Source: a phage
Sequence record: PV636258.1
Reading direction: 5' to 3' (one strand)
DNA: 64,000 nt
The translations under genes were made by a program, and so were the position numbers. Below the pieces are notes generated by a model. The model was not told the origin of the DNA and ran no database searches. It saw only the letters and a program-made list of their open reading frames with translations. Below are positions 1,142-51,025 of this stretch, in pieces. Positions within the stretch are counted from its first letter, which is position 1. Every line of letters begins with the position of its first letter.

Positions 1142-1170
1142 AGTATAAGCGCAGGATTTATAGAAGTAAA
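1142..1170 (-). promoter_or_regulatory. sigma70-like early promoter TTTACT-N17-TATACT
   Basis: minus strand reads TTTACTtctataaatcctgcgctTATACT immediately after hairpin 1171..1187. Confidence 0.4.
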
Positions 1171-1190
1171 GCCCCTCGATGAGGGGCTGG
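1171..1190 (-). terminator. GC hairpin (gcccctcgatgaggggc), putative terminator
   Basis: perfect stem with 3-4 nt loop downstream of 1196..1582 ORF; short T-run follows on minus strand. Confidence 0.4.
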
Positions 1191-1195
1191 TCGGG

Positions 1196-1582
1196 TTACT
1201 TGATGAAGAGTACCAGAGGCAGGTTTGTGCCCTTGTCTACCACGTACAGAGCGTCATCGCCCTTCTTGAACATCAGCTGGTCGTTCTCGTACATCAGCTG
1301 AGCTTTACGGGCGTCGTTTTGGAAATCTTGGTACAGTTCTGGTTCTTCAGATAACAGTTCCGGGTCGATCAGGTGCACTTCTTTAGATCGCAACTCTTCC
1401 TTGGTCAGCGCCGCCCCGTTACGCAGGGCATCACGCAGGGCACGCAGGATAGAGCGCGGGTATCTCTCCCCGTGGACGTTAAACGCAAAGGGGACTTGTT
1501 TAAGGAACGCTCTGGACTTCGCCAGGCCTTGGATAGGGAAAGAGATGGTGGCTTCTAATACGGCTGGTGTGTTCAGATACAT
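1196..1582 (-). CDS. hypothetical protein (128 aa)
   Basis: ATG at 1582; preceded by promoter-like element. Confidence 0.5.
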   Translation of the reverse strand: MYLNTPAVLEATISFPIQGLAKSRAFLKQVPFAFNVHGERYPRSILRALRDALRNGAALTKEELRSKEVHLIDPELLSEEPELYQDFQNDARKAQLMYENDQLMFKKGDDALYVVDKGTNLPLVLFIK

Positions 1583-1630
1583 GATATAGTCCTTCTGGTC
1601 AAATGTGGCGTTGTTGCCGTGACCTAGAAT

Positions 1631-1658
1631 ACTATAAACCAGGTTTTTGAAAAGTAAA
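1631..1658 (-). promoter_or_regulatory. sigma70-like early promoter TTTACT-N16-TATAGT
   Basis: minus strand TTTACTtttcaaaaacctggttTATAGT after hairpin 1659..1675. Confidence 0.4.
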
Positions 1659-1684
1659 GCCCCTGGGTTAGGGGCTTTGAAAGA

Positions 1685-1909
1685 TCAGCGTTTCAAACTT
1701 GCGGCGAGTCCAGTAACGTCGGTCACGGTTTGGTCAGCCAGAACAATCACGGGCATAGACATGCGTTGCTTACCAGTGATTTTCTGTAATTCTTCCAGCT
1801 TGTAGTCTTTGTCTAGCTTCAGAATTTGGTGTTCAATACCGCGAATGCGACAGATGTTTTCAGCTTGTAAACATTGCGCACAACCTTGTTTGGAATAAAT
1901 CGTAATCAT
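1685..1909 (-). CDS. glutaredoxin/NrdH-like redoxin (74 aa)
   Basis: CAQC active-site motif near N-terminus (KQGCAQC); sits directly downstream of nrdB; AGGTGA SD. Confidence 0.75.
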   Translation of the reverse strand: MITIYSKQGCAQCLQAENICRIRGIEHQILKLDKDYKLEELQKITGKQRMSMPVIVLADQTVTDVTGLAASLKR

Positions 1910-1918
1910 TTCTCACCT

Positions 1919-3022
1919 TTAGGCAAATTTCAGACCGTCGGAGACTGATCCAGTAAGGACACCAGTCAGATAATCAGGGGCTTCCGCTTCCTGTAATGCA
2001 TATTGCATTGTTTTATTATCTAGCCACTCATTTATCCATGGCACCGGATTGTCTTTACGGGCTTGTCCTGGATATGGGTGGCCAATAGCTCCCATACGGT
2101 GTGTTGCCAACCAGTCCACCATTTGATGAAGGATATTTGCATTCAGTCCCAGCATTGAGCCGTCTTTGAACAGATAATTCGCCCATTCTTTTTCTTGGTT
2201 GACAACGTCGACATACACCTGGGTCATTTCGCCGCGCAGTTCTTCTCTAATAATGGCAAAATCAGGGTCCATCAGTGGCAGACGGTTCAGGAAAGTCTGG
2301 GTCAGGATGAGGTGATCTTGCTCATCACGAGCAATCTGGCGGATGATTTTAGCGTTGCCTTCCATTTTGTTGAGGAATTGCATGAAAGCCCAAGAACACG
2401 CGAATGAAACATAGAAACGAACGCCTTCGAGGGAGTTAGCAGCAAACAGAGCACGCCAGAATGCACGCTTGGCGTTCATGATGTCTTCACGGGTGAACGC
2501 GCGTCCAGCCATACGCATCCCGCTGTAACGCACCATGTCGTCGTAGTATACGCTGATCTGTCCGGCGCAATCGACGATCTCCTGAACGTCCAGAACATGG
2601 TCAAAAACGATACCAGGATCATTCACTGTGTTACGAAGGATATGCGTGTAAGATAGTGAGTGGATGGCTTCTTGGCGCGTCCACTCCAGAATAGCAAATT
2701 GCGCTTCTGGTGTTGATGCCCATGGGCCAAACGCTTCGAACGGAGCAGCGCCCTGAATAGAGTCCAGCATGGTTTGGCGTTTCAGGTTGCTGAAGTAGAT
2801 GTGTTGTTCCGCAGCGGATAGAGTGGCAAAGTCCGCTTTGTCTTTGGTGACATCCACTTCTTCCGGACGCCAGAATTGGCTGAGGCCTTTTTCATACCAT
2901 TTTTGAACAAAAGGCCAAGCCACTTTGTCATAACGCTGGATACTTACAGGGTCGCCAAAGAACGGCAAACCTGTATTATCTGAAGATGGGTCAAATACTG
3001 AAAATTGCTTTTGTTCGTTCAT
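1919..3022 (-). CDS. nrdB: ribonucleotide reductase class Ia beta subunit
   Basis: 367 aa; strong resemblance to E. coli NrdB throughout; AGGAAA SD before ATG 3022. Confidence 0.95.
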   Translation of the reverse strand: MNEQKQFSVFDPSSDNTGLPFFGDPVSIQRYDKVAWPFVQKWYEKGLSQFWRPEEVDVTKDKADFATLSAAEQHIYFSNLKRQTMLDSIQGAAPFEAFGPWASTPEAQFAILEWTRQEAIHSLSYTHILRNTVNDPGIVFDHVLDVQEIVDCAGQISVYYDDMVRYSGMRMAGRAFTREDIMNAKRAFWRALFAANSLEGVRFYVSFACSWAFMQFLNKMEGNAKIIRQIARDEQDHLILTQTFLNRLPLMDPDFAIIREELRGEMTQVYVDVVNQEKEWANYLFKDGSMLGLNANILHQMVDWLATHRMGAIGHPYPGQARKDNPVPWINEWLDNKTMQYALQEAEAPDYLTGVLTGSVSDGLKFA

Positions 3023-3092
3023 GTTTATTTCCTGATGAATAAGGGGTGACGAATCACCCCTGATATTAAACGATTGTGTGGTATAGACCTAA

Positions 3093-6395: not shown

Positions 6396-6400
6396 GAGAA

Positions 6401-7838: not shown

Positions 7839-8327
7839 TTAAGCCAATTTGTTCACCAGAGTTTCTACTGCGTCGGCGCTCAGTTTACCCATTTTGACAT
7901 ACTGGGATTTCGCTTCACCGCCAGCGGCTTTCACGATATCACTGTTGTCATAACCCTTTTTCGGGAATACCATCACGGAGAATGTTCCGTTGTTCAGCGG
8001 GTTCAGCTGAATACGACCTTTACCGACTACGATGGTGCCGTAAGTTTCGGTATTCGCTTCAACAACGTGGATGTCATGGCCCAGGTCTTTCAGCATGCCA
8101 ACTTTGTCAGCAGTCTTGGCAACTACGGCTTTGTCTACGACAACCTGCTCTACCAGGGTGAAGCCGTTGGTTGCTTTCACTTTGCCGTTCAGCAGATTCA
8201 TGAAGGAAGTTTTGCCACCAGTGAATCCAGCTGCCTGAGCGATGCGGAACATCTCAACTTTTGCAACTTCGGTGTTCAGCTCAAAAGAGATGGTGCCGTT
8301 GGTGATCAGAGTTTTGGTAGTAGCCAT
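7839..8327 (-). CDS. hypothetical protein (162 aa), first gene after early promoter
   Basis: ATG 8327 with GAGGA SD; track start 8363 rejected. Confidence 0.6.
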   Translation of the reverse strand: MATTKTLITNGTISFELNTEVAKVEMFRIAQAAGFTGGKTSFMNLLNGKVKATNGFTLVEQVVVDKAVVAKTADKVGMLKDLGHDIHVVEANTETYGTIVVGKGRIQLNPLNNGTFSVMVFPKKGYDNSDIVKAAGGEAKSQYVKMGKLSADAVETLVNKLA

Positions 8328-8404
8328 GATGTAATTCCTCATAATGTAGTTGGGTCGTTTCACTTTTCATTCGGCGGTGTGTTGTGTACCGCCCTATGTG
8401 AACT

Positions 8405-8433
8405 ATAATAGTGCATCATTATTGAAGAGTAAA
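8405..8433 (-). promoter_or_regulatory. sigma70-like early promoter TTTACTcttcaataa...TATTAT
   Basis: minus strand TTTACTcttcaataatgatgcacTATTAT in AT-rich spacer 8400..8520. Confidence 0.45.
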
Positions 8434-8469
8434 GTCTTTTTCAATAAATTTTTAAATTATTTTTGAAGT

Positions 8470-8500
8470 ATTTTAAAAGGCCTCATAGAACGAGGCCTGA
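8470..8500 (-). terminator. rho-independent terminator
   Basis: hairpin aggcctc/gaggcct followed by TTTTAAAATAC on minus strand, downstream of 8527..8736. Confidence 0.5.
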
Positions 8501-14834: not shown

Positions 14835-15110
14835 TTAACGACGAAACGGGCGAGACGCGTTTTGGCGATTGTTGTAATTCTTATCAAATTGTGCCAACGC
14901 CGCCGGACTCCATTCGCGTTCCCATTCTTTGTCAACTTCGGTTTGGTTGGCAGGTTCAATCATTTCAGCAGTAGGAAAATCGCGTTTCATAATTTCACGC
15001 AATTGTTCAGAAGGGGCGGTTTGGGCGTGGACTAATTCTTCACCGTCGTAAACTTTGGCCATCAACCATTTGCTGCCGTAACGGATATATGCGTCGAGGA
15101 TGATTTTCAT
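14835..15110 (-). CDS. hypothetical protein (91 aa)
   Basis: ATG 15110 with AGGAA SD; early promoter upstream. Confidence 0.5.
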   Translation of the reverse strand: MKIILDAYIRYGSKWLMAKVYDGEELVHAQTAPSEQLREIMKRDFPTAEMIEPANQTEVDKEWEREWSPAALAQFDKNYNNRQNASRPFRR

Positions 15111-15158
15111 AATGTAGTTCCTGCTTTTCAAGTTGGTGTCGTACTGCTTATGTTTAGA

Positions 15159-15186
15159 ATTATACGTGGGTTATTGAAGAAGTAAA
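15159..15186 (-). promoter_or_regulatory. sigma70-like early promoter TTTACTtcttcaataa...TATAAT
   Basis: minus strand TTTACTtcttcaataacccacgTATAAT immediately after hairpin 15187..15200. Confidence 0.5.
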
Positions 15187-15206
15187 GGGGCTTTTGCCCC
15201 TTTTAT
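15187..15206 (-). terminator. hairpin terminator ggggcttttgcccc
   Basis: perfect 5-bp GC stem with flanking A/T runs downstream of 15215..15853. Confidence 0.5.
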
Positions 15207-15214
15207 TGAATAAT

Positions 15215-15853
15215 TTAAGGTGTTGGGTTGACAACGGGAATATGGAACCTGATCCCAGAGACAATGTCCTTCAACTGTGGCTGCCAACCCGTGACCAAAC
15301 GGGGTAGCGCATTAGAACCAGGATAGACAATAATGATATCGCTTCCGGTTACATTATGTTGAGGGAATTGTGACATGTATTGCTCCATCGTCACCCCTGG
15401 GTCTATCAACACAGGACCGACATCCGAAGATGCATATGTTGCCCCCAAACCGTCGACGCCCCATGCTAATATTCCATAATCAGGAATATTGGCTTCAGAA
15501 GTTATGGTGAATCCGAAGATACGATTCAGCGCAGAAAAATCATACACGCCGTGAGCACTGTCATATGTCAGATAACCCTTTGCCAGCATATCGGCGAATA
15601 TCGCGTCTGTGTCACCAGTTGCCGGAGTCGGTATGGTAAACAATAACTCACCAGCAGGAGGTGATGGATACGTGCCGAGCGCATAAAGGCACCAAGCGTC
15701 AATGCATTTCTTGATGAATGCTTCAGGCGCGACATAATCCGCAAGGCGCATTGTACCGGAATATTCTGAAGTAATGATCCCTTCCTTCGCGCCCTGAATA
15801 GCCAGAAACACCATTATGTGTTCATATCCGGTCTGAGATGGAGTGATATTCAT
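15215..15853 (-). CDS. hypothetical protein (212 aa)
   Basis: ATG 15853 overlapping stop of upstream gene (TAATG). Confidence 0.6.
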   Translation of the reverse strand: MNITPSQTGYEHIMVFLAIQGAKEGIITSEYSGTMRLADYVAPEAFIKKCIDAWCLYALGTYPSPPAGELLFTIPTPATGDTDAIFADMLAKGYLTYDSAHGVYDFSALNRIFGFTITSEANIPDYGILAWGVDGLGATYASSDVGPVLIDPGVTMEQYMSQFPQHNVTGSDIIIVYPGSNALPRLVTGWQPQLKDIVSGIRFHIPVVNPTP

Positions 15854-16470
15854 TATCTGGTCCTCTTGAGTTTCTCAATCGTGCGCTTATTCATGGCGAT
15901 CACTCCTGGGTCGACCTTTGGGTTTATTGCCATGCCTTTGAAAGACACACATCGTTGAAGATATTTAGCCTTCTTCACGACGTCGGCTGCATAAGAATTG
16001 GATTTCTGGTTACGATTGAACCCAGCATTGTAAGAGGAAAGGGATTTGCGGATGTTTTGGTTATGATATTCTAGCCAGAAATTCATTTCATCAAGGGCAG
16101 CATTGGCAGCATATTCTTGATTGACCAGTAATTTGATCGCGACATTGGCGTAACACTTCTGCGTTTTGCATCCCTCCCGTTTCCCGACGGTTTGGACGCG
16201 ATTTTGAAATGCCCCCATATTAGCCGATTTGAGGTTATTCCGCATGGATACAACATCTTCTCCGGCGCGGCTTTCCCTCCATGATATTGCGGCGAGAGTG
16301 AAACCAAGGTCTTGTTGTTTTCCCACGTGATAGGCTGTGGCCATGGTTGAAAGTTGTTGATCAGAAAACTCATAATCACATTGGGTGGTACTTTGGGAAG
16401 CGTGCACACTCCCGCTGGCAATGGTAAAGGTCACGGACAAGGCCATGGCCTTCAACGTTGTCATCGTCAT
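15853..16470 (-). CDS. secreted lytic transglycosylase-like protein (SLT domain) with signal peptide
   Basis: N-terminal signal peptide MTMTTLKAMALSVTFTIASGSVHA; catalytic-type ES motif (WRESRAGED) followed by GAFQ; AAGGAA SD. Confidence 0.6.
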   Translation of the reverse strand: MTMTTLKAMALSVTFTIASGSVHASQSTTQCDYEFSDQQLSTMATAYHVGKQQDLGFTLAAISWRESRAGEDVVSMRNNLKSANMGAFQNRVQTVGKREGCKTQKCYANVAIKLLVNQEYAANAALDEMNFWLEYHNQNIRKSLSSYNAGFNRNQKSNSYAADVVKKAKYLQRCVSFKGMAINPKVDPGVIAMNKRTIEKLKRTR

Positions 16471-16548
16471 GATGGCGTTCCTTATGTGTTTGTCGACTTG
16501 CAGCTCGCTGGAGCCTCCTGACAGGGTTAAAAGATAAAGGGCACGTGA

Positions 16549-16555
16549 TATTTAG
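16549..16555 (-). promoter_or_regulatory. late-promoter-like box CTAAATA in hairpin loop
   Basis: minus strand gggcaCTAAATATCacgtgccc, about 78 nt upstream of SLT gene start. Confidence 0.3.
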
Positions 16556-16566
16556 TGCCCTTCACC

Positions 16567-16851
16567 TTATTCGTAGATCAGATGGTATGATTCCTCGATG
16601 CATTCCAACCAACCGTAGACAAATTCCATAGGATCATCCCAAGCTGTATGGGAAGCAATAGTGAAATCCCCGTCCAAGATTTGCATATCAGTATATTTGT
16701 TGAAACCTAACACGGCATCAACGACTATTAAGCCACCTTGCTCTAGATAACGCTTTGGGGTCAACGTTACCTGATAATGTTTGTTTCGCTGATTCCATAA
16801 CTCGACAGCGATATCACAAGCAATCTGAATTTCATCTTTCTCTTCTGACAT
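16567..16851 (-). CDS. hypothetical protein (94 aa)
   Basis: ATG 16851; overlaps end of upstream ORF. Confidence 0.45.
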   Translation of the reverse strand: MSEEKDEIQIACDIAVELWNQRNKHYQVTLTPKRYLEQGGLIVVDAVLGFNKYTDMQILDGDFTIASHTAWDDPMEFVYGWLECIEESYHLIYE

Positions 16852-17161
16852 ATGTTTGTCTCAAATATTCAGTAAAAGATTTACCCAACTTGCGGAATAG
16901 TTTAATACGACCGATCACTTTGACATAAACATCTCCATGACATGGGCGCGGCTTACACCAGCATCCCAAGGTCTTTCCATCTAATTCAAGGAGTTCATCC
17001 TCGGTGATATCCCCTTCAATCAGGCGCACATACAAATCGTCTTCAAACAACTCAATACAGTTTCCCCGCCCGTGGTCTCTGACCTCGAACGGGTTTCCCC
17101 ATTTACCAGGGCGACCAATGTAGACGTCGTATGGCTCCTTCTTGAAGTGGACGACTTTCAT
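16832..17161 (-). CDS. DUF4326-like protein (109 aa)
   Basis: YDVYIGRPGKWGNPF ... GKTLGCWCKPRPCHGDV arrangement characteristic of DUF4326. Confidence 0.55.
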   Translation of the reverse strand: MKVVHFKKEPYDVYIGRPGKWGNPFEVRDHGRGNCIELFEDDLYVRLIEGDITEDELLELDGKTLGCWCKPRPCHGDVYVKVIGRIKLFRKLGKSFTEYLRQTYVRRER

Positions 17162-17469: not shown

Positions 17470-19803
17470 TTAATCCTTCTTAATCACTTCGGTCATGCCA
17501 TTACGCAGACCATAACGAATGTTGTGCTGGAAATATTCTTGGAACTCCTGTTCACGCTGACTGATGACAAACAGATTGTTCCCACCAAATTTATGTTTCA
17601 ACATCTCGACGGATTCTTGAACCCCTCGCTCACTCATGTTTTCGAGTATCTCATCCAACACGAAGAGGTTACATTGTACAGACGCCTTCAGGTTAGCGAC
17701 GTCCCGCAGGGCTAATGTCACCGCCAGATTGAGTCGGCTGCGTTGTCCCGTAGACAGGGAGAATATGCTTTGCCCTTTACGACCTGCAGCGCTCATGGTG
17801 ATTTCAAATGTATCATCAACCGCAATATCCAAGAACATATTGAGTGCTTCAAGATACTCGTTTATTTTACTATTGAGGAAAGGCAAATACAGGCTGATAA
17901 TTCGAGCCTTGGTCTGATCATCTTTTAGGAAGAACAGAAGATGGTTCAGGTCTTGCAATTTCTCATCCAACTCTACGCGCCGCGCATTCAGATCTTCCAT
18001 TAATGCCGTGATGCGAGCGATCTCTCCTTCCAGGGCGTCAGTTGGTGTCGGCTTAACCGCCAATTTACGCTCTAAATCGGCAATGGATGCCTCCAGAGGG
18101 GCACGGCGTGATTTCAGGCTGGTGAGTTTATCAGCCGTGTCGTTGATACTCTTAGAGAGCTGCTCACGGGCTTGGCGAATAGAAGTTGTGATATCTTCAT
18201 AACGGGTGTCTACGGCCTTGAGGACGTCGTTAATTTTGGACTGTTGTTCCCGCTGTAAAGATGTTTTCTCAACAGCAGCGACATCATAGAATCCTTGGAT
18301 GTCGCGTTTTAATGTAGTGATCGCTGATTCCGCTTCTCGGATTTCATTGCGCAAAGCATCCAGTTCTTTGTCAATAACCGAAATTTGAGAAGATAATTCT
18401 GAATCTCTGACATTGTAATTCTCAATCAGGGAATTCACTTCTTCTAGGGCTGTATCAACCTGAAGAATCTTGTCAGTCAGTTCACTGATTTGTGGATAAT
18501 ATTGACTTTCAATGCGTGATTTGGTATCGTCCGACACTAATTGCGTACACGTAGGGCAAGTGCCCATATCGTGGAAACGTTTGATGGCAGATTCATGTCC
18601 TTCCATTTCTGTTACGAATTTGATACGGAAGTTCTCACCCTGCTGACGCCGCGCTAATGCTTTGTTCAGTTCATCCAGGTTAGCATTCCGTTGGCTGACC
18701 AGATCATTTTTACGTTCCGCGACTACCGCCATTCTCTCCCGAATTTCTTGTAATGAACGTTCTCCATCAGACACCTCGATACGCTCATAGTCTTCAGCCT
18801 TGGTATCAGCCTCATCCTGAACCGCTTGGATTTTGGCCGCATACTCTTCATTGATGGCATCGATATCCCCTTTCATTTCGGCATTCAGTCTATTTCGAAC
18901 ATCTGATAATTCTGATTCCAATTTAGAGTCTTGAGCACGGGACTCTGTCAGTTGTTCCTGCACTGCGCCGATATCTGAATTCAGGCTATTCAGACGTTCC
19001 TTCTCTTGGACAAGAATATCCGCAGATTGTTGCTGGATCATCGCATTGGAATTATTGATCTGTTCCAACTGCGCTTGCTGGCCTTTTAGATTCACATCAT
19101 GAAAGGCGTAATCATTGGTGACCGTCGTGAGTTCATTCGTTACTGTCTTGATAGATGCTTTTACATCTTCATTCATCAGACTGAAGAACCCCAAATCCCA
19201 GATTGTCTCTACCATAGCGCGACGGTCGGCAGTGTACATTTCCGTGAATGGGATGAACTTCTCTTTGCCTAGAACCAGGGAGTTCTCAAACATCTTCTGG
19301 TCTACGCCAATCAGGTTCACGATATATTTGTTCATGTCGGCTTTGGCCGCATCATTCACGACCTGCTTCCACTGACCGTCTACCATCTGATAGACTTCTA
19401 CGAAATCAGGTTTGATACCACGACGGACTTTCCATTCACTTCCTCGAGTGGAGAACTCAACTTCACCCACGCATTCCTTTTTGTTTTGAGAGTTAACCAA
19501 TCCGGCTTTCTTTTCTTTCTTACTGTATGTGTCGTTGTACAGAACGAAGAATAACAACCAAACAAGCATGGTAGATTTACCAGCGCCATTGTCATCGGAT
19601 GTAACCAAGGTTGCCGAATTGCGTTGGTAATCAATTTCCATGAATTCATTACCGATGGAACGGAAGTTTTTAGCGCGACCGCGATGGAAAGTCAGTTTGT
19701 GGGTAATTTCCCCACGGATTTCAAATGGTGCTTCAACAGAAACAGGAGTGTCCGCTTCTTTCAACAGCGAACCAAATTTTGATAATAGGTCTACATTGCT
19801 CAT
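17470..19803 (-). CDS. 46: recombination endonuclease subunit, Rad50/SbcC-like (T4 gp46-like)
   Basis: Walker A DDNGAGKST, long coiled-coil, zinc hook CPTC, C-terminal signature and D-loop (LFVLDE); 777 aa. Confidence 0.9.
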   Translation of the reverse strand: MSNVDLLSKFGSLLKEADTPVSVEAPFEIRGEITHKLTFHRGRAKNFRSIGNEFMEIDYQRNSATLVTSDDNGAGKSTMLVWLLFFVLYNDTYSKKEKKAGLVNSQNKKECVGEVEFSTRGSEWKVRRGIKPDFVEVYQMVDGQWKQVVNDAAKADMNKYIVNLIGVDQKMFENSLVLGKEKFIPFTEMYTADRRAMVETIWDLGFFSLMNEDVKASIKTVTNELTTVTNDYAFHDVNLKGQQAQLEQINNSNAMIQQQSADILVQEKERLNSLNSDIGAVQEQLTESRAQDSKLESELSDVRNRLNAEMKGDIDAINEEYAAKIQAVQDEADTKAEDYERIEVSDGERSLQEIRERMAVVAERKNDLVSQRNANLDELNKALARRQQGENFRIKFVTEMEGHESAIKRFHDMGTCPTCTQLVSDDTKSRIESQYYPQISELTDKILQVDTALEEVNSLIENYNVRDSELSSQISVIDKELDALRNEIREAESAITTLKRDIQGFYDVAAVEKTSLQREQQSKINDVLKAVDTRYEDITTSIRQAREQLSKSINDTADKLTSLKSRRAPLEASIADLERKLAVKPTPTDALEGEIARITALMEDLNARRVELDEKLQDLNHLLFFLKDDQTKARIISLYLPFLNSKINEYLEALNMFLDIAVDDTFEITMSAAGRKGQSIFSLSTGQRSRLNLAVTLALRDVANLKASVQCNLFVLDEILENMSERGVQESVEMLKHKFGGNNLFVISQREQEFQEYFQHNIRYGLRNGMTEVIKKD

Positions 19804-28747: not shown

Positions 28748-29433
28748 CTTTCGTTCTCCTTCATCATATTATCACAGTCAATTCTTGTTTGCTTGAGTTC
28801 ACGGGAAAGCCTTGGATCATCAAGATTGACAGACAAATTAGTGGAAAGATCTTTCAAACCATTCTGAACACGGTCTTCATAATAATGATCATTTTCCACC
28901 AGCCATGCTCTCAGGCCAAGGGCGCGAGTCCGCCATTCCTTTTTCAAACGTCGATCAGATTCTTGATCAGCACTGTATTCAAATACTCGGATACATTGGT
29001 TGCCATCATTGATGAGATCCAGCTGACGTCGGCCAACCTGCACACCTTTTTGTAATGCTGGAGAAGGAAGAGAACGGCACTGTCTTACGGTCATTCGTCC
29101 TTGTGTGACCATACGACCAGTCATGATGAGATCGCCAGCCTCCATGCCTCCTCGGTTAAATTCTTCGTCGTTCATATATCCTTTCAGGTTGAATGCGCCT
29201 TGCTTATATCGATTAAACTCGATACCAGCATTTACAACGGCATCTGTGACATTACCTGTGGCCCAGAGTTCAGCAAAGTTCTCTATGGAACCAGTTTTGT
29301 CTATAGCCACGGCTTGGGAGAACCCAGCACAGTAGGAAAGATCAGACCACAGTTTTTCACCTGTGGAATTCAGCTTGGCTGTGGCAGGAAGTGCCAGACC
29401 AGCCAGCACAACCGCGATGATTAAACGTTTCAT
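28744..29433 (-). CDS. secreted/periplasmic protein with signal peptide (229 aa)
   Basis: MKRLIIAVVLAGLALPATA signal peptide from ATG 29433 with AAGGAG SD; early-type promoter upstream. Confidence 0.55.
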   Translation of the reverse strand: MKRLIIAVVLAGLALPATAKLNSTGEKLWSDLSYCAGFSQAVAIDKTGSIENFAELWATGNVTDAVVNAGIEFNRYKQGAFNLKGYMNDEEFNRGGMEAGDLIMTGRMVTQGRMTVRQCRSLPSPALQKGVQVGRRQLDLINDGNQCIRVFEYSADQESDRRLKKEWRTRALGLRAWLVENDHYYEDRVQNGLKDLSTNLSVNLDDPRLSRELKQTRIDCDNMMKENER

Positions 29434-29461
29434 GGTGATTCTCCTTATTTCATTGGATAAA

Positions 29462-29490
29462 ATGATAGGGCTGTCACCATGTTGAGTAAA
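29462..29490 (-). promoter_or_regulatory. sigma70-like early promoter TTTACT-N17-TATCAT
   Basis: minus strand TTTACTcaacatggtgacagcccTATCAT upstream of 29433. Confidence 0.35.
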
Positions 29491-29517
29491 GGGTTTCAAT
29501 AAACTATCGTATTCAGA

Positions 29518-30004: not shown

Positions 30005-30283
30005 TCATTCGGACTTAAACAGCAATTCGCGAACAGAAGTCCCAACGATATTCTGGGTGTTCAACAAACGAGTTAAATCATCCATGTCATATGCTGAATT
30101 GGTGATATGACGCAAGATAATCGCCAACATTCCCTCCAGCGCTCTCCGATTGTTATTCTCTTCAATGTCAAACTTAATTTCAACAAATCGAGATAGCATT
30201 CTGGATTGAGCATTTGTTTCGTTGGTTTTGCTCTGTATAATATCTTTGATTTCCGAACGAGCAATACTTCTTTGATCTGTCAT
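30005..30283 (-). CDS. hypothetical protein (92 aa)
   Basis: ATG 30283; hairpin+ATTTGAAA element directly upstream. Confidence 0.5.
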   Translation of the reverse strand: MTDQRSIARSEIKDIIQSKTNETNAQSRMLSRFVEIKFDIEENNNRRALEGMLAIILRHITNSAYDMDDLTRLLNTQNIVGTSVRELLFKSE

Positions 30284-30335
30284 GATATAGTTCCTTCATT
30301 TCAAATGGGCGGGGCAAAGATACCCCGCCGTGGGT

Positions 30336-30842
30336 TTATAGGGTAATAAGTGATACGGTAAAAACCATCGTCCCATCTGTTGCCATTTTTCTTGAAACTG
30401 GGAAGACGCGAGGCTGGCAGAATATCCATTCTTTCTCCATGGACGCCAAGTCCAGCATATCCATTTCTGATTCATCGTCTTTGTTCACAAATTTTTCTAG
30501 AGAACCAAAGACATTAAGCCCCTCTGGGAGTCCGTTTCGATGTTTGTAACAAATGCGAGCAACAGCTCTGGTTCCATACGATTTAGAAAATTGTTTGGCC
30601 ACATGCTTCAATTCACTGAAGCTGAGACAAGAATCCCATGTCTGGAACATGTCGCCTCGTTCAAACATCATCTCTAAACGCACAACGTCCTCTTTAGGCA
30701 ACCCACGATAAAGTGTGGTCATCTGCGGTTCGCGAAATTCTTGCACCAGATCACGGACGACAGGAGAAACAGTGCCAGGGCGCATAATATGGGACTTATC
30801 ATGGACGAGGTAAAATAAATCTTGAATTTGTTGATCGGTCAT
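30336..30842 (-). CDS. hypothetical protein (168 aa)
   Basis: ATG 30842 with AGGAA SD; hairpin+ATTTGAAA element upstream. Confidence 0.55.
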   Translation of the reverse strand: MTDQQIQDLFYLVHDKSHIMRPGTVSPVVRDLVQEFREPQMTTLYRGLPKEDVVRLEMMFERGDMFQTWDSCLSFSELKHVAKQFSKSYGTRAVARICYKHRNGLPEGLNVFGSLEKFVNKDDESEMDMLDLASMEKEWIFCQPRVFPVSRKMATDGTMVFTVSLITL

Positions 30843-30901
30843 GGTGTAGTTCCTGCATTTCAAATCGACGGGGTAATCATACCCCGCCCTAAGTTATAGA
30901 A

Positions 30902-31141
30902 TTAACTGACGTGCTTCAGAAGAGCGAAGAGGATCACGGCCTTGGCTTTCACCTTGCCGACGATGCCTGTCTCAACATCGACTTCTTCCGCAACCCACTC
31001 TTTACCCTTCTTGCTAATGATGACGTCGCGGCGCTGGACGTATACCTCTTTCGTCGCATACACACGACGGAACCCTTTAGCGCGGAGCAAGCCCCAATTA
31101 CGGTCAATCTCCACTGAAGTTTCTACCATTTTGTTCTTCAT
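30902..31141 (-). CDS. hypothetical protein (79 aa)
   Basis: ATG 31141; early promoter upstream. Confidence 0.5.
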   Translation of the reverse strand: MKNKMVETSVEIDRNWGLLRAKGFRRVYATKEVYVQRRDVIISKKGKEWVAEEVDVETGIVGKVKAKAVILFALLKHVS

Positions 31142-31192
31142 GATATAATCTTACCTTTCAACCTGGTGAACCCATCGTTCGCCAGTTATTGA

Positions 31193-31221
31193 ATAATACG
31201 CATTTGCCTTATAGAAGTAAA
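31193..31221 (-). promoter_or_regulatory. sigma70-like early promoter TTTACT-N17-TATTAT
   Basis: minus strand TTTACTtctataaggcaaatgcgTATTAT after hairpin 31237..31258. Confidence 0.4.
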
Positions 31222-31264
31222 CCCCTAAAAGTAAAAATCCCCAACGTTTGTTGGGGATCTTCAG

Positions 31265-48083: not shown

Positions 48084-48704
48084 ATGACGATGATAATGGT
48101 GCTTGCACTCACAAGTTGCCGTATCTTTGTCACGTCCGTCATTTCTGTAACCGACCTCTGGGATCCTGAAATCAGAACCATACCTGTTAACATCTCAGCC
48201 GACATTGATAAATGCAATAAAAATATTCTGAATCAAGTAGTATCTGATTTTCAGAACTTCCAGACTCTTCAAGCTGTTGGTTGTTTTGATGATAACAACC
48301 AGTCACTGAGACCATACTGGAAAACCACGATTCCCCTATTGAGGAAAGGTGACGAAGGAAAGATCCCATATCTATCCGCAAGTATTTATTACTCTCAGAA
48401 TAATAGCATCATAGCGACTTTCAATCCTTCTTTCTTTGACAAACTTAGAAGGAATACTCAAGCAAGGGACGTAGAAATCACCAGAGACGTTGCAATATCA
48501 TTTCAGATAGTTAATAACACCAAATCTCCGATCCGAATTGCCACTCAGGGTGTTTTCGTTAATGGATCTGCTGTGGGTAATGAAATGAACATCTATGAAA
48601 TAAGACCAGGCGGTAAAGTATGGATTCGAATGAGTGATGTTGGGGTGAACTCCCTGGTGATGGAAGGTATCGAACCAGTGGGAGTTCTCCCCGCTAGACA
48701 TTGA
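48084..48704 (+). CDS. putative lipoprotein (206 aa) on opposite strand
   Basis: MTMIMVLALTSC lipobox-type signal peptide; divergent from 47523..48020; abuts stop of 48705..49433. Confidence 0.4.
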   Translation: MTMIMVLALTSCRIFVTSVISVTDLWDPEIRTIPVNISADIDKCNKNILNQVVSDFQNFQTLQAVGCFDDNNQSLRPYWKTTIPLLRKGDEGKIPYLSASIYYSQNNSIIATFNPSFFDKLRRNTQARDVEITRDVAISFQIVNNTKSPIRIATQGVFVNGSAVGNEMNIYEIRPGGKVWIRMSDVGVNSLVMEGIEPVGVLPARH

Positions 48705-49433
48705 TTATTTCAGGGACTCTTTTAATTCTGGAGTCCCTATTTTATCAATAACGCCTCCAGCACAGAGATCTTTGGCCCATTCTCCAAGAACATTCGCAAA
48801 AGAGAAGTTTAGACATTCTTTGATCATACTTTCAATATGAGCAAGTTCTGCAGCTATCCCATCGGTGATATCGTTTATAACTCCATTGACGGCGGTTATT
48901 GCCTCATTGATATGTCCTGTTACTTCAGCAGCCAATTGCTGTAGTTTTGCCATACCTTCTGAGGCACCTTCCATAATCATGTCATACAATTCCGATATCT
49001 TGTTAGTCACAGTCTGGAGAGCGCCTTCCATAGCGTTTAACCATTGGCGGCCTAGATCCTGAACAACACCGAATGCTTTGTTGATCAGGTCACAATTGTT
49101 TGGTTCCCGTGATATACTTTTCAAACCTGATTTATATGAAACGGAAGTCCCAATTCTTGAATACGCTTCATTTATGCTCTGGTCGCCATATGTGTTCAGT
49201 GTCGTTATCCCCGTGTTGGCAGAGCTATACATGTTTGTGGCTGCTGTAAGTTTATCTGGTGTTAATCCACCTGCTGACATAGCCAACTGCATTTCCGGAG
49301 TCGCGTTGGCAGTTATCAATGGTATATTGGTACTACCACTGGTGATTAAATCCTGTGAGGGACCGGAGAGGGACGGAAGCGGGTTGCTAAATGCGTTACC
49401 AGAGGAAAGGACATCGTAGATTTGTGCGTTCAT
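48705..49433 (-). CDS. hypothetical protein (242 aa), late gene
   Basis: ATG 49433 preceded by TATAAATACCCCC embedded in 26-nt palindrome. Confidence 0.6.
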   Translation of the reverse strand: MNAQIYDVLSSGNAFSNPLPSLSGPSQDLITSGSTNIPLITANATPEMQLAMSAGGLTPDKLTAATNMYSSANTGITTLNTYGDQSINEAYSRIGTSVSYKSGLKSISREPNNCDLINKAFGVVQDLGRQWLNAMEGALQTVTNKISELYDMIMEGASEGMAKLQQLAAEVTGHINEAITAVNGVINDITDGIAAELAHIESMIKECLNFSFANVLGEWAKDLCAGGVIDKIGTPELKESLK

Positions 49434-49455
49434 AAAATACCCCCAATTTTGGGGG

Positions 49456-49463
49456 TATTTATA
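49456..49463 (-). promoter_or_regulatory. T4-type late promoter box TATAAATA within perfect palindrome 49435..49460
   Basis: minus strand TATAAATACCCCCAAAATTGGGGGTATTT, 22 nt upstream of ATG 49433. Confidence 0.5.
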
Positions 49464-49464
49464 A

Positions 49465-49635
49465 TCATGGAAGATGATAGATAAAATTCTCGCAGAACTT
49501 TTTGGTGTATTTCTTTAGAAATATAAATTTAGGTTCGCGTGGTGTATTTTTCAGATCATTTAGTGTGATATAACTGATTCGCGCCAGAAAGTACATGGTA
49601 AAAGCGACGCAAAGAATCAAAATTAATTGCAGCAT
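49465..49635 (-). CDS. small membrane protein (56 aa)
   Basis: hydrophobic helix LILILCVAFTMYFLA; GGAG SD; TATAAATA box at 49667..49674. Confidence 0.45.
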   Translation of the reverse strand: MLQLILILCVAFTMYFLARISYITLNDLKNTPREPKFIFLKKYTKKFCENFIYHLP

Positions 49636-49666
49636 AGCTAACTCCATATGGGTGTGAAGGCAAACA

Positions 49667-49674
49667 TATTTATA
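49667..49674 (-). promoter_or_regulatory. late promoter box TATAAATA
   Basis: exact T4 late consensus on minus strand upstream of small membrane ORF. Confidence 0.45.
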
Positions 49675-50092
49675 ACAATCGTTTGGTTTTGGGTTTGCCC
49701 ATGAGAGTGATATTGACATTGACTCCTGCTTTTTTCATGCGGGTAATCATGTCTTGCGTCCCAGTAGACGAACCATCCCATAACGCAATTCCAAAGACCT
49801 CAAGACCTTTTTGTTTGGCCAGGGTTGTAGCTTTGTCTAACATATCTTTGTTACGTTGGTTTCCTGCGCCTTTCCCATATATCGTGTGATAATCCTTAGG
49901 GATCCCCATTGGCGTAACATGGACATAATTGATTTCACACCAATCACGAGATATCAAGTCCACACCAACCGCTTCACCTTCTATAAAAGTTTCGATCTCG
50001 TGGGGATCTAACAGTTCATCCAGTTTGGCGAAGATTTTATCCCGCTCGGTTATTGAGCGGGAACCTGTAATGAGCACGACATATTTCTTCAT
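49670..50092 (-). CDS. SLOG/DprA-like (DUF2493-type) protein
   Basis: YVVLITGSR and WDGSSTGT motifs. Confidence 0.45.
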   Translation of the reverse strand: MKKYVVLITGSRSITERDKIFAKLDELLDPHEIETFIEGEAVGVDLISRDWCEINYVHVTPMGIPKDYHTIYGKGAGNQRNKDMLDKATTLAKQKGLEVFGIALWDGSSTGTQDMITRMKKAGVNVNITLMGKPKTKRLL

Positions 50093-50097
50093 AGAAC

Positions 50098-50415
50098 TCA
50101 CAGCGCCCCAAGATTGCCGATGACATAAAGGGAGCACAGGGGAGTCCCTGACGAGCGGGGTTCGATTGTCATCCCACTCAGGCGGATCAGTTCCAGCAAG
50201 CCGTCGGTGGTCTGATACGCACGAGTCGAACCGTTTGGACGATATAGCTCCAACTCGGTTCGCCCTTCCTTTAATGCGTTACGGATGCGTGTGAATACGC
50301 TGTGGGCTTGATATTTTTGACGTAGAATATCTAAACGGGTGATGAGATTTCGACTGCGGCTGCGACGCCCCTTTGAAGAAACAACTAATTTCATTTCTGG
50401 TGTTTTACAAGCCAT
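50098..50415 (-). CDS. hypothetical basic protein (105 aa)
   Basis: ATG 50415. Confidence 0.5.
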   Translation of the reverse strand: MACKTPEMKLVVSSKGRRSRSRNLITRLDILRQKYQAHSVFTRIRNALKEGRTELELYRPNGSTRAYQTTDGLLELIRLSGMTIEPRSSGTPLCSLYVIGNLGAL

Positions 50416-50483
50416 GTTATAGTCCTCTATTTGTAGGGGTTGGGTATGATTTTAACATACCCGTTCAAATGGTTTAGAACAAA

Positions 50484-50948
50484 TTACAGATCTTGGCACT
50501 GATCGCAATATTCGTCGTATGTGAATGTCTCATCACACAGGCCATCACGCATCATATCGGCCTTGGCTTCGCCAAACATTTTCAGGGTGATAACGTTGCC
50601 GTCTAAATCTTTACGAAGTTCGTTCGGCTTGGTTTCTATGAAGTCGAACACCACAAAGAACCCTTCGGTGACATATTTGATGGTTTTGTTGCTCAGCTTA
50701 CGGATGCCACCATTCTTTTTGAAGATAGAGGTGCGGAGGTTTTCGAATTCAGCCAGATTGTCATCGTGATTCTTGATGGCGTTCAGCATTGCGTCAAGGT
50801 CGATTTCAGGACGAAGCATTTTGACCTGATCTTCGCGGTCATAAGAAGTGAAAGATTCTATGTTGGTGATGCCCAGAGCGTTTTTAACAAACGCGTCAAA
50901 TTTGGTGAAATTGTTGAATGCCCAGACGGAGATTTTTACGGTTGTCAT
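50484..50948 (-). CDS. hypothetical protein (154 aa)
   Basis: ATG 50948 downstream of early promoter. Confidence 0.55.
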   Translation of the reverse strand: MTTVKISVWAFNNFTKFDAFVKNALGITNIESFTSYDREDQVKMLRPEIDLDAMLNAIKNHDDNLAEFENLRTSIFKKNGGIRKLSNKTIKYVTEGFFVVFDFIETKPNELRKDLDGNVITLKMFGEAKADMMRDGLCDETFTYDEYCDQCQDL

Positions 50949-50997
50949 GATGTAGATCCTTCATTTCAGAGTCAGTGTTGTGCTGCTTATGGAATGA

Positions 50998-51025
50998 AGT
51001 ATACGGGGTTTATTGAAGAAGTAAA
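50998..51025 (-). promoter_or_regulatory. sigma70-like early promoter TTTACTtcttcaataa...TATACT
   Basis: minus strand TTTACTtcttcaataaaccccgTATACT overlapping hairpin 51004..51030. Confidence 0.5.

What the first reader, a model, noticed from the sequence alone, without database searches (positions are those of the whole stretch)
1142..51025. Family of near-identical early promoters fused to upstream hairpins
Seven sites (about 1150, 1640, 8420, 15170, 29475, 31205, 51010) share -35 TTTACT, frequently the extended spacer tcttcaataa, and a TATAnT -10, each immediately downstream of a GC hairpin. This terminator-promoter cassette organisation partitions the minus-strand array into early transcription units.
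Basis: seen in the sequence. Interest (0 to 1): 0.45.

Follow-up and report, generated by a model that had tools for sequence, protein, structure and literature searches.

The report
Conserved early promoter–hairpin cassettes in phage
Seven short intergenic cassettes in this ViI-like Salmonella phage each combine a host-type promoter of the phage-T4 early kind, usually a GC hairpin and a shared ribosome-binding leader; they are conserved across related phage genera and mark spots where small unknown genes are inserted or swapped, as already described for T4-like phages.

Summary
The window comes from a Kuttervirus (Ackermannviridae, ViI-like; about 100% identical to Salmonella phages Chennai and PM10). 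The seven sites are real. TTTAC[TA]-N16-18-TANNNT matches exactly seven times, all on the minus (coding) strand and all intergenic.

"Near-identical" and "each immediately downstream of a hairpin" are overstated:
- Only the −35 TTTACT is invariant.
- Three hairpins abut the −35, two lie 14 and 44 nt upstream, one stem-loop overlaps the −35 and spacer, and one site has none.

Whole-genome census gives 10 copies in Chennai, 11 in Klebsiella phage Menlow and 8 in Dickeya phage RC-2014, mostly at orthologous junctions. The cassettes are more conserved (81–84% identity) than the flanking coding DNA (69–72%).

They match the published T4/PST consensus for promoter-early stem-loops (PeSLs), TTTACW-N17-TAYWAT. 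They also behave like PeSLs:
- Most Kutterviruses lack exactly the 488 bp (gene C122 plus one cassette) lying between two repeated hairpin/−35 junctions.
- The ORF downstream of two other window cassettes is replaced by unrelated genes, with homology ending at the ATG.

Best reading: σ70-type, probably early, promoter–terminator cassettes, a new member of a known kind. Timing and activity are inferred; no transcript data were found. They do not partition the whole array. A larger TTCAAT-N14-TATAAT class and CTAAATA late-type motifs head most other units.

The parts
1089..1188 (-). Cassette s1150. Hairpin AGCCCCTCATCGAGGGGCT at 1188-1170, with its last T serving as the first T of the −35. −35 TTTACT 1170-1165; 17-nt spacer; −10 TATACT 1147-1142; leader with TTGAAAG..GGGTACTACATC; ATG 1091-1089 of an 80-aa ORF (Chennai C121).
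   Evidence: flagged both promoter-like and terminator-like; −14.0 kcal/mol; orthologue in RC-2014
1580..1678 (-). Cassette s1640. Hairpin AAAGCCCCTAACCCAGGGGCTTT at 1678-1656; its 3' arm includes the TTT of the −35. −35 TTTACT 1658-1653; 16-nt spacer; −10 TATAGT 1636-1631; ATG 1582-1580 of a 128-aa ORF (C122).
   Evidence: −13.4 kcal/mol. Repeat D8 with s1150, 81% over 37 nt, spacing 488.
1164..1651 (-). 488-bp insertion module: the s1640 spacer, −10 and leader, ORF C122, and the s1150 hairpin/−35. Most Kutterviruses lack it and carry a single chimeric cassette instead. Exact ends are ambiguous within the ~31-nt repeated hairpin/−35 junction.
   Evidence: only 21 of 293 records cover ≥80% of window 700-2200, and most span 1013 bp against 1501 bp of query; in Marshall the two BLAST pieces (window 2200-1646 and 1188-700) overlap by 31 nt of hairpin plus −35.
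8325..8498 (-). Cassette s8420. Terminator-like hairpin AGGCCTCGTTCTATGAGGCCT 8498-8478 followed by TTTT. AT-rich tract containing TTTATTGAAAAAGAC 8477-8434. −35 TTTACT 8433-8428; 17-nt spacer CTTCAATAATGATGCAC; −10 TATTAT 8410-8405. Leader hairpin around 8394-8372. In-frame ATGs at 8342-8340 and 8327-8325 (C130).
   Evidence: orthologues in Menlow and RC-2014, cassette identity 88–93%. The AG3 paper listed this region as Porf100 in a different register.
15108..15218 (-). Cassette s15170. Upstream TTATTCAATAA at about 15213-15203. Hairpin AAAAGGGGCAAAAGCCCCTTT 15204-15184, with its 3' arm running into the −35. −35 TTTACT 15186-15181; 16-nt spacer TCTTCAATAACCCACG; −10 TATAAT 15164-15159. Conserved leader CATAAGCAGTACGACACCAACTTGAAAAGCAGGAACTACATT. 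ATG 15110-15108 (C139, 91 aa).
   Evidence: (10 of 12 hexamer matches). Alignment across four genera shows 86% column identity, an invariant stem and a variable loop. The downstream ORF is swapped.
29431..29503 (-). Cassette s29475, the weakest member. TTTATTGAAACCC 29503-29491; −35 TTTACT 29490-29485; 17-nt spacer; −10 TATCAT 29467-29462; no hairpin. ATG 29433-29431 of a 229-aa ORF with a signal-peptide-like N-terminus (C158).
   Evidence: 93–95% conserved in RC-2014, but only 59–71% in Menlow, where the −10 reads TACTAT.
31139..31259 (-). Cassette s31205. Terminator-like hairpin GATCCCCAACAAACGTTGGGGATT 31259-31236 followed by TTTTACTTTT. −35 TTTACT 31221-31216; 17-nt spacer; −10 TATTAT 31198-31193; TTCAATAA 31193-31186. 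Leader hairpin CTGGCGAACGATGGGTTCACCAG 31185-31163. ATG 31141-31139 (C162, 79 aa).
   Evidence: −15.3 kcal/mol. The Menlow orthologue has no upstream hairpin but a different leader hairpin.
50946..51050 (-). Cassette s51010. AT-rich AAATTTAAAATTTATTCAATAA upstream, with TTCAATAA at 51039-51032. A 10-bp inverted repeat ACGGGGTTTA…TAAACCCCGT 51031-51003 encloses part of the −35 and the spacer. −35 TTTACT 51025-51020; 16-nt spacer; −10 TATACT 51003-50998. Leader CATAAGCAGCACAACAC…; ATG 50948-50946 (C187, 154 aa).
   Evidence: −13.0 kcal/mol. The core is 100% identical in Chennai, Menlow and RC-2014, while the three downstream ORFs are unrelated. Repeat D5 with s15170.

Best explanation
The seven sites are members of a small family of composite promoter–terminator cassettes in ViI-like phages (Ackermannviridae), with about 10 copies per genome. 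They are built like the promoter-early stem-loops (PeSLs) of T4-like phages.

Anatomy. Each cassette fills the whole spacer from the stop codon of one gene to the ATG of the next. It contains:
- usually a GC-rich stem-loop (GGGG/CCCC type) that would stop transcripts arriving from upstream; in three cases its T-rich 3' tail is itself the −35 hexamer;
- a σ70-type promoter of the T4 early kind (TTTACT, 16–17 bp, TAT(A/T)nT), sometimes preceded by an AT-rich tract with TTATTCAATAA;
- a 55–95-nt leader ending in a shared initiation region (TTGAAA-n-GAAGGAACTAYATYATG).

Inferred mechanism. Unmodified host RNA polymerase holoenzyme recognises these promoters right after infection and transcribes the short, mostly unknown-function gene(s) downstream.

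Shown by comparison. Because the same 30–100 bp recur at several junctions and in related phages, homologous recombination between cassettes inserts, deletes or replaces the adjoining ORF without disturbing its expression signals.
For: 1. Motif. Exactly 7 window hits, all on the coding strand and intergenic. There are 10 in the Chennai genome, and a position weight matrix finds no others. TTTACTTC is enriched in gene-oriented intergenic DNA, 7 observed against 0.5 expected.
2. Consensus. It equals the published T4/PST PeSL promoter consensus TTTACW-N17-TAYWAT (PMC4122927). PeSL anatomy (AT-rich tract, σ70-like promoter, GGGG…CCCC stem-loop at variable positions, Shine-Dalgarno site and ATG) is described in PMC2839356.
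3. Conservation. Orthologous cassettes are present in Taipeivirus Menlow (11) and Limestonevirus RC-2014 (8). Mean identity is 0.84 for the core and 0.81 for the cassette, against 0.69–0.72 for the flanking 300 nt. The s15170 alignment across 4 genera has an invariant stem and −35 with a variable loop.
4. Hairpins of −12.9 to −15.3 kcal/mol lie directly after stop codons; s1150 was flagged as terminator-like.
5. Plasticity.
   - The 488-bp C122 module between the repeated hairpin/−35 junctions is absent from most Kutterviruses.
   - C139 is replaced by unrelated ORFs in bering/EspM4VN and in RC-2014, with homology ending at the ATG.
   - Three unrelated ORFs follow the 100%-conserved s51010 core.
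   - A homing-endonuclease gene is inserted between duplicated TTTACTTT in phage KE28.
6. All ten first downstream ORFs lack Pfam domains and fall in PHROGs of unknown function.
7. Two family members were already listed as putative early promoters in phage AG3.
Against: - No transcription start sites, time-course RNA data or reporter assays exist for any of these sites or for any Ackermannviridae phage in the searched literature.
- The −35 matches TTGACA at only 4 of 6 positions. None of the seven has the TGn extended −10 typical of T4 early promoters (against PMC2988021).
- Three hairpins have an interrupted U-tract (UUUACUU), and only one of them was called terminator-like by the scan.
- All copies lie on one strand, with none in the plus-strand arrays that carry DNA polymerase, rII and topoisomerase. 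They therefore cannot be the whole early programme.
- Enrichment of variable genes directly downstream is suggestive only: 5 of 10 against 45 of 195, Fisher p=0.066.
- From my own knowledge, not tested here: ViI-like DNA carries hypermodified thymidines, which could alter recognition of these T-rich elements.
Confidence: 0.7

Rival explanations
1. The sites are genuine σ70-type promoters but not immediate-early ones. They might be active throughout infection, or in a delayed-early or middle phase, possibly modulated by a phage factor that binds the recurring TTCAATAA / TTATTCAATAA word in the spacer and upstream region.
For: - TTCAATAA is the most enriched 8-mer in gene-oriented intergenic DNA: 21 observed against 1.3 expected.
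- It occurs both inside the spacer and upstream of several family members.
- It also defines a second promoter-like class with fixed spacing.
- Temporal class cannot be read from sequence alone.
Against: - The full −35/−10 pair with 16–17 bp spacing needs no activator in principle.
- The consensus equals that of T4 early promoters/PeSLs.
- TTCAATAA is absent from four of the seven spacers: 1150, 1640, 29475 and 31205.
Confidence: 0.15
2. The conserved element acts mainly at the RNA level. It would be a terminator hairpin plus a conserved 5' leader and translation-initiation region, for example a target of the phage RegA-like translational repressor or RegB-like RNase. The promoter-like hexamers would then be incidental AT-rich sequence.
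For: - The leader and initiation region (TTGAAA-n-GAAGGAACTAYATYATG) are as conserved as the hexamers.
- The same initiation region recurs at junctions without a TTTACT promoter: 30278-30303, 30837-30862 and 52110-52133.
- The phage encodes RegB-like and RegA-like proteins.
Against: - −35 TTTACT is invariant and the −10 hexamers stay within TATNNT or TACTAT across genera, while neighbouring spacer bases vary.
- Spacing stays at 16–17 bp.
- Conservation of the leader begins at the predicted start site (CATAAGCAG…), as expected for a transcribed 5' end.
- No Rfam family matches anywhere in the window.
Confidence: 0.07
3. The repeats are primarily recombination or homing targets, or binding sites for a phage DNA-binding protein. 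On this view they are selfish or structural DNA elements rather than expression signals.
For: - Breakpoints of the 488-bp indel and of a homing-endonuclease insertion fall inside the hairpin/−35 junction.
- TTATTCAATAA is a near-palindrome, which is typical of sites bound by protein dimers.
Against: - Strict orientation with the downstream gene.
- Fixed distance to the ATG (56–97 nt).
- Presence of a complete promoter, Shine-Dalgarno site and start codon.
- This reading is not exclusive of the best explanation: PeSLs are both expression signals and recombination sites.
Confidence: 0.05
4. The seven sites are chance matches to a loose σ70-like pattern in AT-rich intergenic DNA.
For: - The loose pattern is expected about 2.8 times per window by chance, with up to 6 in shuffles.
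- Generic promoter scans are unspecific here: 49 found against 33 expected.
Against: - All 7 are on the coding strand and in the ~6% of sequence that is intergenic.
- They recur at orthologous positions in three genera, with conservation above the flanking coding DNA.
Confidence: 0.01

Closest known systems
PeSLs (promoter-early stem-loops) of T4-like myoviruses: RB49/phi1, T4/PST, KVP40/nt-1 (Arbiol 2010, PMC2839356; Comeau 2014, PMC4122927)
   Same: - Intergenic composite of an AT-rich tract, a σ70-like early promoter, a GGGG…CCCC stem-loop at variable positions (upstream of, overlapping, or between the boxes), a Shine-Dalgarno site and an ATG.
- The promoter consensus is identical to the T4/PST type (TTTACW-N17-TAYWAT).
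- Dispersed copies lie next to unknown-function ORFs.
- Indels and gene replacements between relatives have breakpoints inside the cassette.
   Different: - The host phage belongs to Ackermannviridae, a separate family that shares only core genes with T4.
- There are only about 10 copies per genome, mostly at conserved orthologous junctions, and they are not concentrated in recognised hyperplastic regions.
- Copies are less alike (about 80% over 37–56 nt).
- Promoter and terminator activity and mini-circle formation are untested here.
T4 early promoters (Hinton 2010, PMC2988021)
   Same: - −35/−10 architecture read by host Eσ70.
- TTTAC-type −35.
- AT-rich UP-like upstream tracts at some sites.
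- Located ahead of small early-type ORFs.
   Different: - No TGn extended −10 at any of the seven sites.
- According to Kutter 2011 (PMC3184105), ViI-like phages have no Alt, ModA, MotA or AsiA homologues, so modulation of these promoters must differ.
Previously predicted 'early promoters' of ViI-like phages (AG3: Anany 2011, PMC3121705, Table S2; LIMEstone1: Adriaenssens 2012, PMC3296691; CBA120: Kutter 2011, PMC3184105)
   Same: AG3 Porf138 (TTttacttcttcaataactcacgTATAAT) is a family member. AG3 Porf100 overlaps the s8420 orthologue.
   Different: - Those papers searched with TTGACA-N15-18-TATAAT or T4 consensus boxes and listed 5–9 unrelated sites.
- They did not recognise a family, the hairpin fusion, the shared leader, or the link to gene swapping.
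- Kutter et al. stated they could not identify early promoters by informatics.
Morons of lambdoid phages (gene plus its own promoter and terminator)
   Same: A single extra ORF carried with its own promoter and terminator is inserted between conserved genes; C122 is an example.
   Different: Morons are not flanked by repeated regulatory sequences. Here the insertion lies between two copies of the same hairpin/−35 junction, which implies homologous recombination.

Membership tests
PeSL (promoter-early stem-loop) cassettes | σ70-like −35/−10 promoter with about 17-bp spacing in an intergenic spacer, oriented with the downstream gene | tested here: met
   7 of 7 sites have TTTACT, a 16–17-bp spacer and TAT(A/T/C)nT, on the coding strand and intergenic. 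This matches the T4/PST PeSL consensus TTTACW-N17-TAYWAT.
PeSL (promoter-early stem-loop) cassettes | Stable GC-rich stem-loop within or next to the promoter, at a variable position | tested here: met
   6 of 7 sites have stems of 8–10 bp, −12.9 to −15.3 kcal/mol. Three abut the −35, two lie upstream and one overlaps the −35 and spacer. Site s29475 has none.
PeSL (promoter-early stem-loop) cassettes | AT-rich tract upstream of the −35 | tested here: inconclusive
   Clear at s8420, s15170 and s51010, and short at s29475. Absent at s1150, s1640 and s31205, where a hairpin or GC-rich sequence precedes the −35.
PeSL (promoter-early stem-loop) cassettes | [quoted passage not shown] | tested here: met
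   Intergenic listing. The ATG lies 56–97 nt from the start of the −35.
PeSL (promoter-early stem-loop) cassettes | Dispersed copies similar enough to support homologous recombination | tested here: met
   D5, 56 nt at 80%; D8, 37 nt at 81%; repeats of the initiation region, D1–D3. Similarity is lower than reported for RB49/phi1.
PeSL (promoter-early stem-loop) cassettes | Indels or replacements of adjoining ORFans between related phages, with breakpoints in the cassette | tested here: met
   - 488-bp C122 module.
- C139 replaced by two unrelated ORFs.
- Three unrelated ORFs after s51010, and further cases.
- Genome-wide enrichment is only suggestive, p=0.066.
PeSL (promoter-early stem-loop) cassettes | Measured promoter and terminator activity; formation of PeSL mini-circles | not testable with these tools
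   Requires reporter fusions and inverse PCR on infected cells, as in PMC2839356.
PeSL (promoter-early stem-loop) cassettes | Host genome is a T4-like myovirus in the sense of the original description | tested here: not met
   Taxonomy is Ackermannviridae; Cvivirinae; Kuttervirus. This is a matter of taxonomic scope, not a mechanistic feature.
T4-type early promoters | Extended −10 (TGn) and UP element in addition to −35/−10 ('uber' promoters, PMC2988021) | tested here: not met
   No TG lies one base upstream of any of the seven −10 hexamers. UP-like AT tracts occur at only 3–4 sites.
T4-type early promoters | Used by unmodified host Eσ70 immediately after infection, independent of phage protein synthesis | not testable with these tools
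   No transcript data were found for Ackermannviridae.
Intrinsic (rho-independent) terminators, for the hairpins | GC-rich stem, short loop and an immediately following U-tract, placed 3' of a gene | tested here: inconclusive
   - Stem and position are as required at 5 sites.
- The U-tract is good at s8420 (UUUU) and s31205 (UUUUUACUUUU).
- It is interrupted (UUUACUU) at s1150, s1640 and s15170.
- The consensus scan flagged only s1150 among the sites it covered.
T4 middle (MotA-dependent) promoters, considered for the neighbouring TTCAAT-N14-TATAAT class | Good −10, no −35, activator box about 12±1 bp upstream of the −10 with consensus (a/t)(a/t)(a/t)TGCTTtA; MotA and AsiA encoded | tested here: not met
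   The geometry fits: TTCAATAA sits 12 bp before the −10, with a sharp peak at N14 after TTCAAT. The box sequence is different. MotA/AsiA homologues are reported absent (PMC3184105); I did not re-test that.

The most novel reading that the evidence does not exclude
The TTTACT cassettes may be the 'early' arm of a three-class promoter system in Ackermannviridae.

The second and larger class is marked by TTCAATAA, the genome's most enriched intergenic word. Its form is TTCAAT-N14-TA(T/C)(A/T)AT, with no −35 and with the −10 often sitting in the loop of a terminator-like hairpin. It heads nrdA, gp32, the thymidylate-synthase and primase clusters, and the gene cluster after DNA polymerase.

The box sits where T4's MotA box sits, yet these phages have no MotA or AsiA. 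That would imply an undiscovered activator or σ-remodelling mechanism for middle-type transcription.
Probability: 0.2. Interest if true: 0.7.

Novelty: new member of a known kind. Interest (0 to 1): 0.35.

Why it matters
Kutter et al. (2011) reported that early promoters of ViI-like phages could not be identified by informatics, and later genome papers listed only scattered σ70-like hits.

This analysis contributes three things:
- A conserved TTTACT cassette family gives about 10 concrete, testable candidates per genome for the first transcripts of phages that are widely proposed for biocontrol of Salmonella, E. coli O157, Klebsiella and Dickeya.
- It points to a set of unknown-function genes likely to act in host takeover.
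- It extends the PeSL idea, regulatory cassettes that double as recombination linkers for gene shuffling, from T4-like phages to a separate myovirus family.

The extension is incremental rather than surprising.

Tried and rejected
- Exact 16-mer scan of IMG/VR for TTTACTTCTTCAATAA. It gave more than 120 loci, mostly unrelated contigs of all sizes, with only a few contigs of about 157 kb. A 16-mer is too short for that collection, so the result was uninformative and I did not use it.
- Position weight matrix trained on the 10 Chennai sites. It recovers only its own training sites plus one coding-region false positive. It is circular as evidence and useful only to show there are no extra copies on either strand.
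- Generic σ70 and terminator consensus scan. It has poor specificity (49 found against 33 expected) but did flag four of the sites.
- Rfam scan of the window: no family matched.
- Pfam scan of the ten first downstream ORFs found nothing, and the PHROG matches are all 'unknown function'. No anti-σ or activator candidate emerged.
- Literature searches for Ackermannviridae or Kuttervirus transcriptomes or start-site maps and for the TTCAATAA motif: nothing relevant.
- Reading TTCAAT as a displaced −35: rejected, because the 14-bp spacer is too short and the hexamer at the canonical 17-bp position is not conserved.
- Test of whether variable genes are significantly enriched downstream of cassettes: a trend only, p=0.066.

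Full report
**Identity of the window.** A 6-kb stretch is 100% identical to Salmonella phage Chennai (MN953776.1; Ackermannviridae, Cvivirinae, Kuttervirus) and 99% identical to phage PM10, with about 280 related records. The window corresponds to about 85.3–148.9 kb of Chennai with a few SNPs and small indels. Nearly all genes run on the minus strand. They comprise small unknown ORFs, nucleotide-metabolism and replication genes, and from about 53 kb onward head and tail genes.

**The observation.**
- TTTAC[TA]-N16-18-TANNNT matches seven times, all on the minus strand. Shuffles give 2.8±1.4, maximum 6.
- The count alone is weak evidence. Strand, intergenic position and conservation (below) are what make the family real.
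- The exact 16-mer TTTACTTCTTCAATAA occurs twice.
- The −10 is TATAnT at four sites, TATTAT at two and TATCAT at one.
- An independent repeat search found s15170/s51010 (56 nt, 80%) and s1150/s1640 (37 nt, 81%) among the strongest dispersed repeats of the window. The members are related, not near-identical.
- Hairpins of −12.9 to −15.3 kcal/mol sit directly after the upstream stop codon at five sites.
  - At s1150, s1640 and s15170 the 3' arm runs into the −35, so the terminator's T-rich tail is the −35 hexamer.
  - At s31205 and s8420 the hairpin lies 14 and 44 nt upstream.
  - At s51010 a 10-bp stem encloses part of the −35 and the spacer.
  - s29475 has no hairpin.

**Family size and conservation.**
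- The Chennai genome has 10 intergenic, gene-oriented copies, all on the same strand.
- Klebsiella phage Menlow (Taipeivirus) has 11 and Dickeya phage RC-2014 (Limestonevirus, a different subfamily) has 8, almost all at orthologous junctions, including the weak s29475.
- Mean identity among the three genomes is 0.84 for the −35 to −10 core and 0.81 for the cassette. The flanking 300 nt score 0.69–0.72.
- The s51010 core is 100% identical in all three.
- In a four-genus alignment of s15170 the stem, the −35 and most of the spacer are invariant, while the hairpin loop varies (AAAA, TTCG, AAAC, TTTT).
- Leader conservation starts at the predicted transcription start (CATAAGCAG…).

**What they resemble.**
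- Comeau et al. 2014 give TTTACW-N17-TAYWAT as the promoter consensus of PeSLs in the T4/PST pair.
- Arbiol et al. 2010 describe PeSLs as an AT-rich tract, a σ70-like early promoter, a GGGG…CCCC stem-loop at one of five positions relative to the boxes, a Shine-Dalgarno site and an ATG. They showed promoter and terminator activity, and recombination between copies that shuffles adjoining ORFans. The anatomy here is the same.
- Earlier ViI-like genome papers found only scattered σ70-like hits. AG3 Table S2 lists Porf138, a family member, and Porf100, the s8420 orthologue read in another register. LIMEstone1 has five 'early' sites defined by T4 similarity.
- Kutter et al. wrote that early promoters could not be identified by informatics and that MotA, AsiA, Alt and ModA are absent.
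- I found no transcript or start-site data for this phage family.

**Recombination signature.**
1. Gene C122 (window 1196-1582) lies between s1640 and s1150, whose hairpin/−35 junctions are repeated 488 bp apart.
   - Only 21 of 293 related records cover this region fully.
   - Most Kutterviruses are exactly about 488 bp shorter.
   - In phage Marshall a single chimeric cassette joins the s1640-type hairpin to the s1150-type −10 and leader. The two alignment pieces overlap by 31 nt of hairpin plus −35.
   - In phage KE28 a homing-endonuclease gene sits between duplicated TTTACTTT at the same spot.
2. Downstream of s15170, the window and Menlow encode C139. Phages bering (Kuttervirus) and EspM4VN (Agtrevirus) encode a different 123-aa protein, and RC-2014 encodes a third. 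Homology ends at the ATG and resumes at a conserved right boundary.
3. Three unrelated ORFs follow the identical s51010 core, and similar breaks occur at three further cassettes.

Genome-wide, the first ORF after a cassette is missing from Menlow or RC-2014 in 5 of 10 cases, against 45 of the other 195 genes. This is a trend only, p=0.066. All ten first ORFs are of unknown function.

**Mechanism and confidence.**
- Shown: the sequence anatomy, copy number, orientation, conservation and breakpoint positions.
- Inferred: recognition by host Eσ70, early timing, termination by the hairpins, and recombination between cassettes as the cause of the indels.
- I put 0.7 on 'σ70-type promoter–terminator cassettes of the PeSL kind, probably early'.
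- The main rival is a different temporal class or factor dependence (0.15).
- RNA-level-only, recombination-site-only and chance readings are unlikely given the invariant hexamers, the fixed spacing and the conservation.

- The cassettes do not partition the array.
- An unbiased k-mer count in gene-oriented intergenic DNA ranks TTCAATAA first (21 observed against 1.3 expected, in 18 regions). CTAAATA(C) and TATAAT follow, and TTTACTTC comes only later (7 against 0.5).
- TTCAATAA defines a second class, TTCAAT-N14-TA(T/C)(A/T)AT.
  - It has 7 strict copies against 0.2 in shuffles, with a sharp peak at N14, and all copies are intergenic.
  - It has no −35, and the −10 often lies in the loop of a terminator-like hairpin.
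  - It is conserved in Menlow and RC-2014.
  - It sits ahead of nrdA and, in relaxed form, gp32, the thymidylate-synthase cluster and a primase-proximal cluster.
  - The geometry equals that of T4 MotA-dependent middle promoters, where the box lies 12±1 bp before the −10. The box sequence differs.
- CTAAATA motifs precede structural genes.
- This three-class picture is my most novel reading. It rests on sequence alone.

**Verdict.** This is a real, conserved regulatory cassette family, correctly spotted but over-described. It is a new member of a known kind (PeSL-like cassettes with T4-type early promoters) in a phage family where it had not been described. Interest is moderate.

Noticed in passing
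window 5433-5403 (−), 10760-10733 (−), 27584-27548 (−), 30889-30867 (−), 37994-37969 (−), 40477-40455 (−), 52595-52563 (−), 52969-52925 (−); Chennai record 14050, 28557, 32963, 35957 (+) and 63694, 90669 (−): A second, larger promoter-like class: TTCAAT(AA)-N14-TATAAT/TATTAT with no −35. The −10 very often sits in the loop of a GC hairpin followed by a T-run. The strict form has 7 copies against 0.2 in shuffles, with a sharp peak at a 14-nt spacer. It is conserved at orthologous junctions in Menlow and RC-2014 and lies ahead of nrdA, gp32, the td and primase clusters and the cluster after DNA polymerase. The geometry is like T4 MotA-dependent middle promoters, but the box differs and no MotA/AsiA is reported.
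   Followed up: partly
window minus strand 8426-8419, 15178-15171, 15210-15203, 25255-25248, 31193-31186, 37994-37987, 51017-51010, 51039-51032, 52595-52588, 52969-52962: TTCAATAA is the most enriched 8-mer in gene-oriented intergenic DNA of the genome: 21 observed against 1.3 expected, in 18 regions. In its longer form TTATTCAATAA it is a near-palindrome. It occurs in the spacer of some TTTACT promoters, upstream of others (as TTCAATAA or its complement TTATTGAA) and as the upstream box of the second class. What reads it is unknown.
   Followed up: partly
window minus strand at 61620, 56839, 55621, 46286, 16555, 12017, 11152 (CTAAATA); 7232 and 5457 (TTAAATA): CTAAATA(C/T) motifs lie in spacers ahead of structural and some other genes, sometimes inside a hairpin (e.g. 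CCCCCTAAATACAGGGGG at about 11152). They probably correspond to T4-type late promoters (TATAAATA) read by the gp55 homologue. Kutter 2011 said the late motif of ViI-like phages was not yet identified.
   Followed up: no
window 30272-30336 and 30831-30895 (−): A 65-nt repeat pair (82% identical), made of a GC hairpin plus the shared initiation region, flanks ORF C161 (30336-30842). C161 and its neighbour C160 are absent from Menlow or RC-2014. This is a second cassette-flanked variable module, here without a TTTACT promoter.
   Followed up: partly
window 1084-1107, 8339-8362, 15103-15130, 30278-30303, 30837-30862, 50943-50968, 52110-52133 (− strand gene starts): A shared translation-initiation region, TTGAAA-n-GAAGGAACTA(C/T)AT(C/T)ATG, recurs at a subset of gene starts, with or without a promoter. 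It extends well beyond a Shine-Dalgarno site. It could serve as a recombination linker at the ATG or as a target of translational control, since the phage encodes RegA- and RegB-like proteins.
   Followed up: no
L138 (Salmonella phage KE28, PP856727.1) 640-1500; corresponds to window about 1658: A homing-endonuclease gene (801 bp) is inserted inside the orthologous cassette, between two copies of TTTACTTT. It separates the hairpin and first −35 from the intact −35/−10.
   Followed up: partly
window 8394-8372 and 31185-31163 (−); Menlow orthologue of s31205: GC hairpins lie in the 5' leader, starting about 10–15 nt after the −10. At s31205 the Menlow orthologue has a different sequence (GGGCGGGAACGGCTCCCGCC) that still forms a hairpin, which suggests the structure itself is maintained, possibly as an mRNA-stabilising 5' stem-loop.
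   Followed up: no
window 38009-37969 (−): A hybrid site, CCCTTTACTTCATTCTTCAATAACTCTTTTCAACGTATTAT. TTTACT lies too far (26 nt) from the −10, whereas TTCAAT is at the class-B distance (14 nt). It may be a decayed or recombinant cassette.
   Followed up: no
Chennai record 15212-16980 and 17885-18426 (outside the window; L003): Long non-coding stretches (1.77 kb and 0.54 kb) surround the tRNA cluster and are left unannotated in the record. I did not examine them.
   Followed up: no
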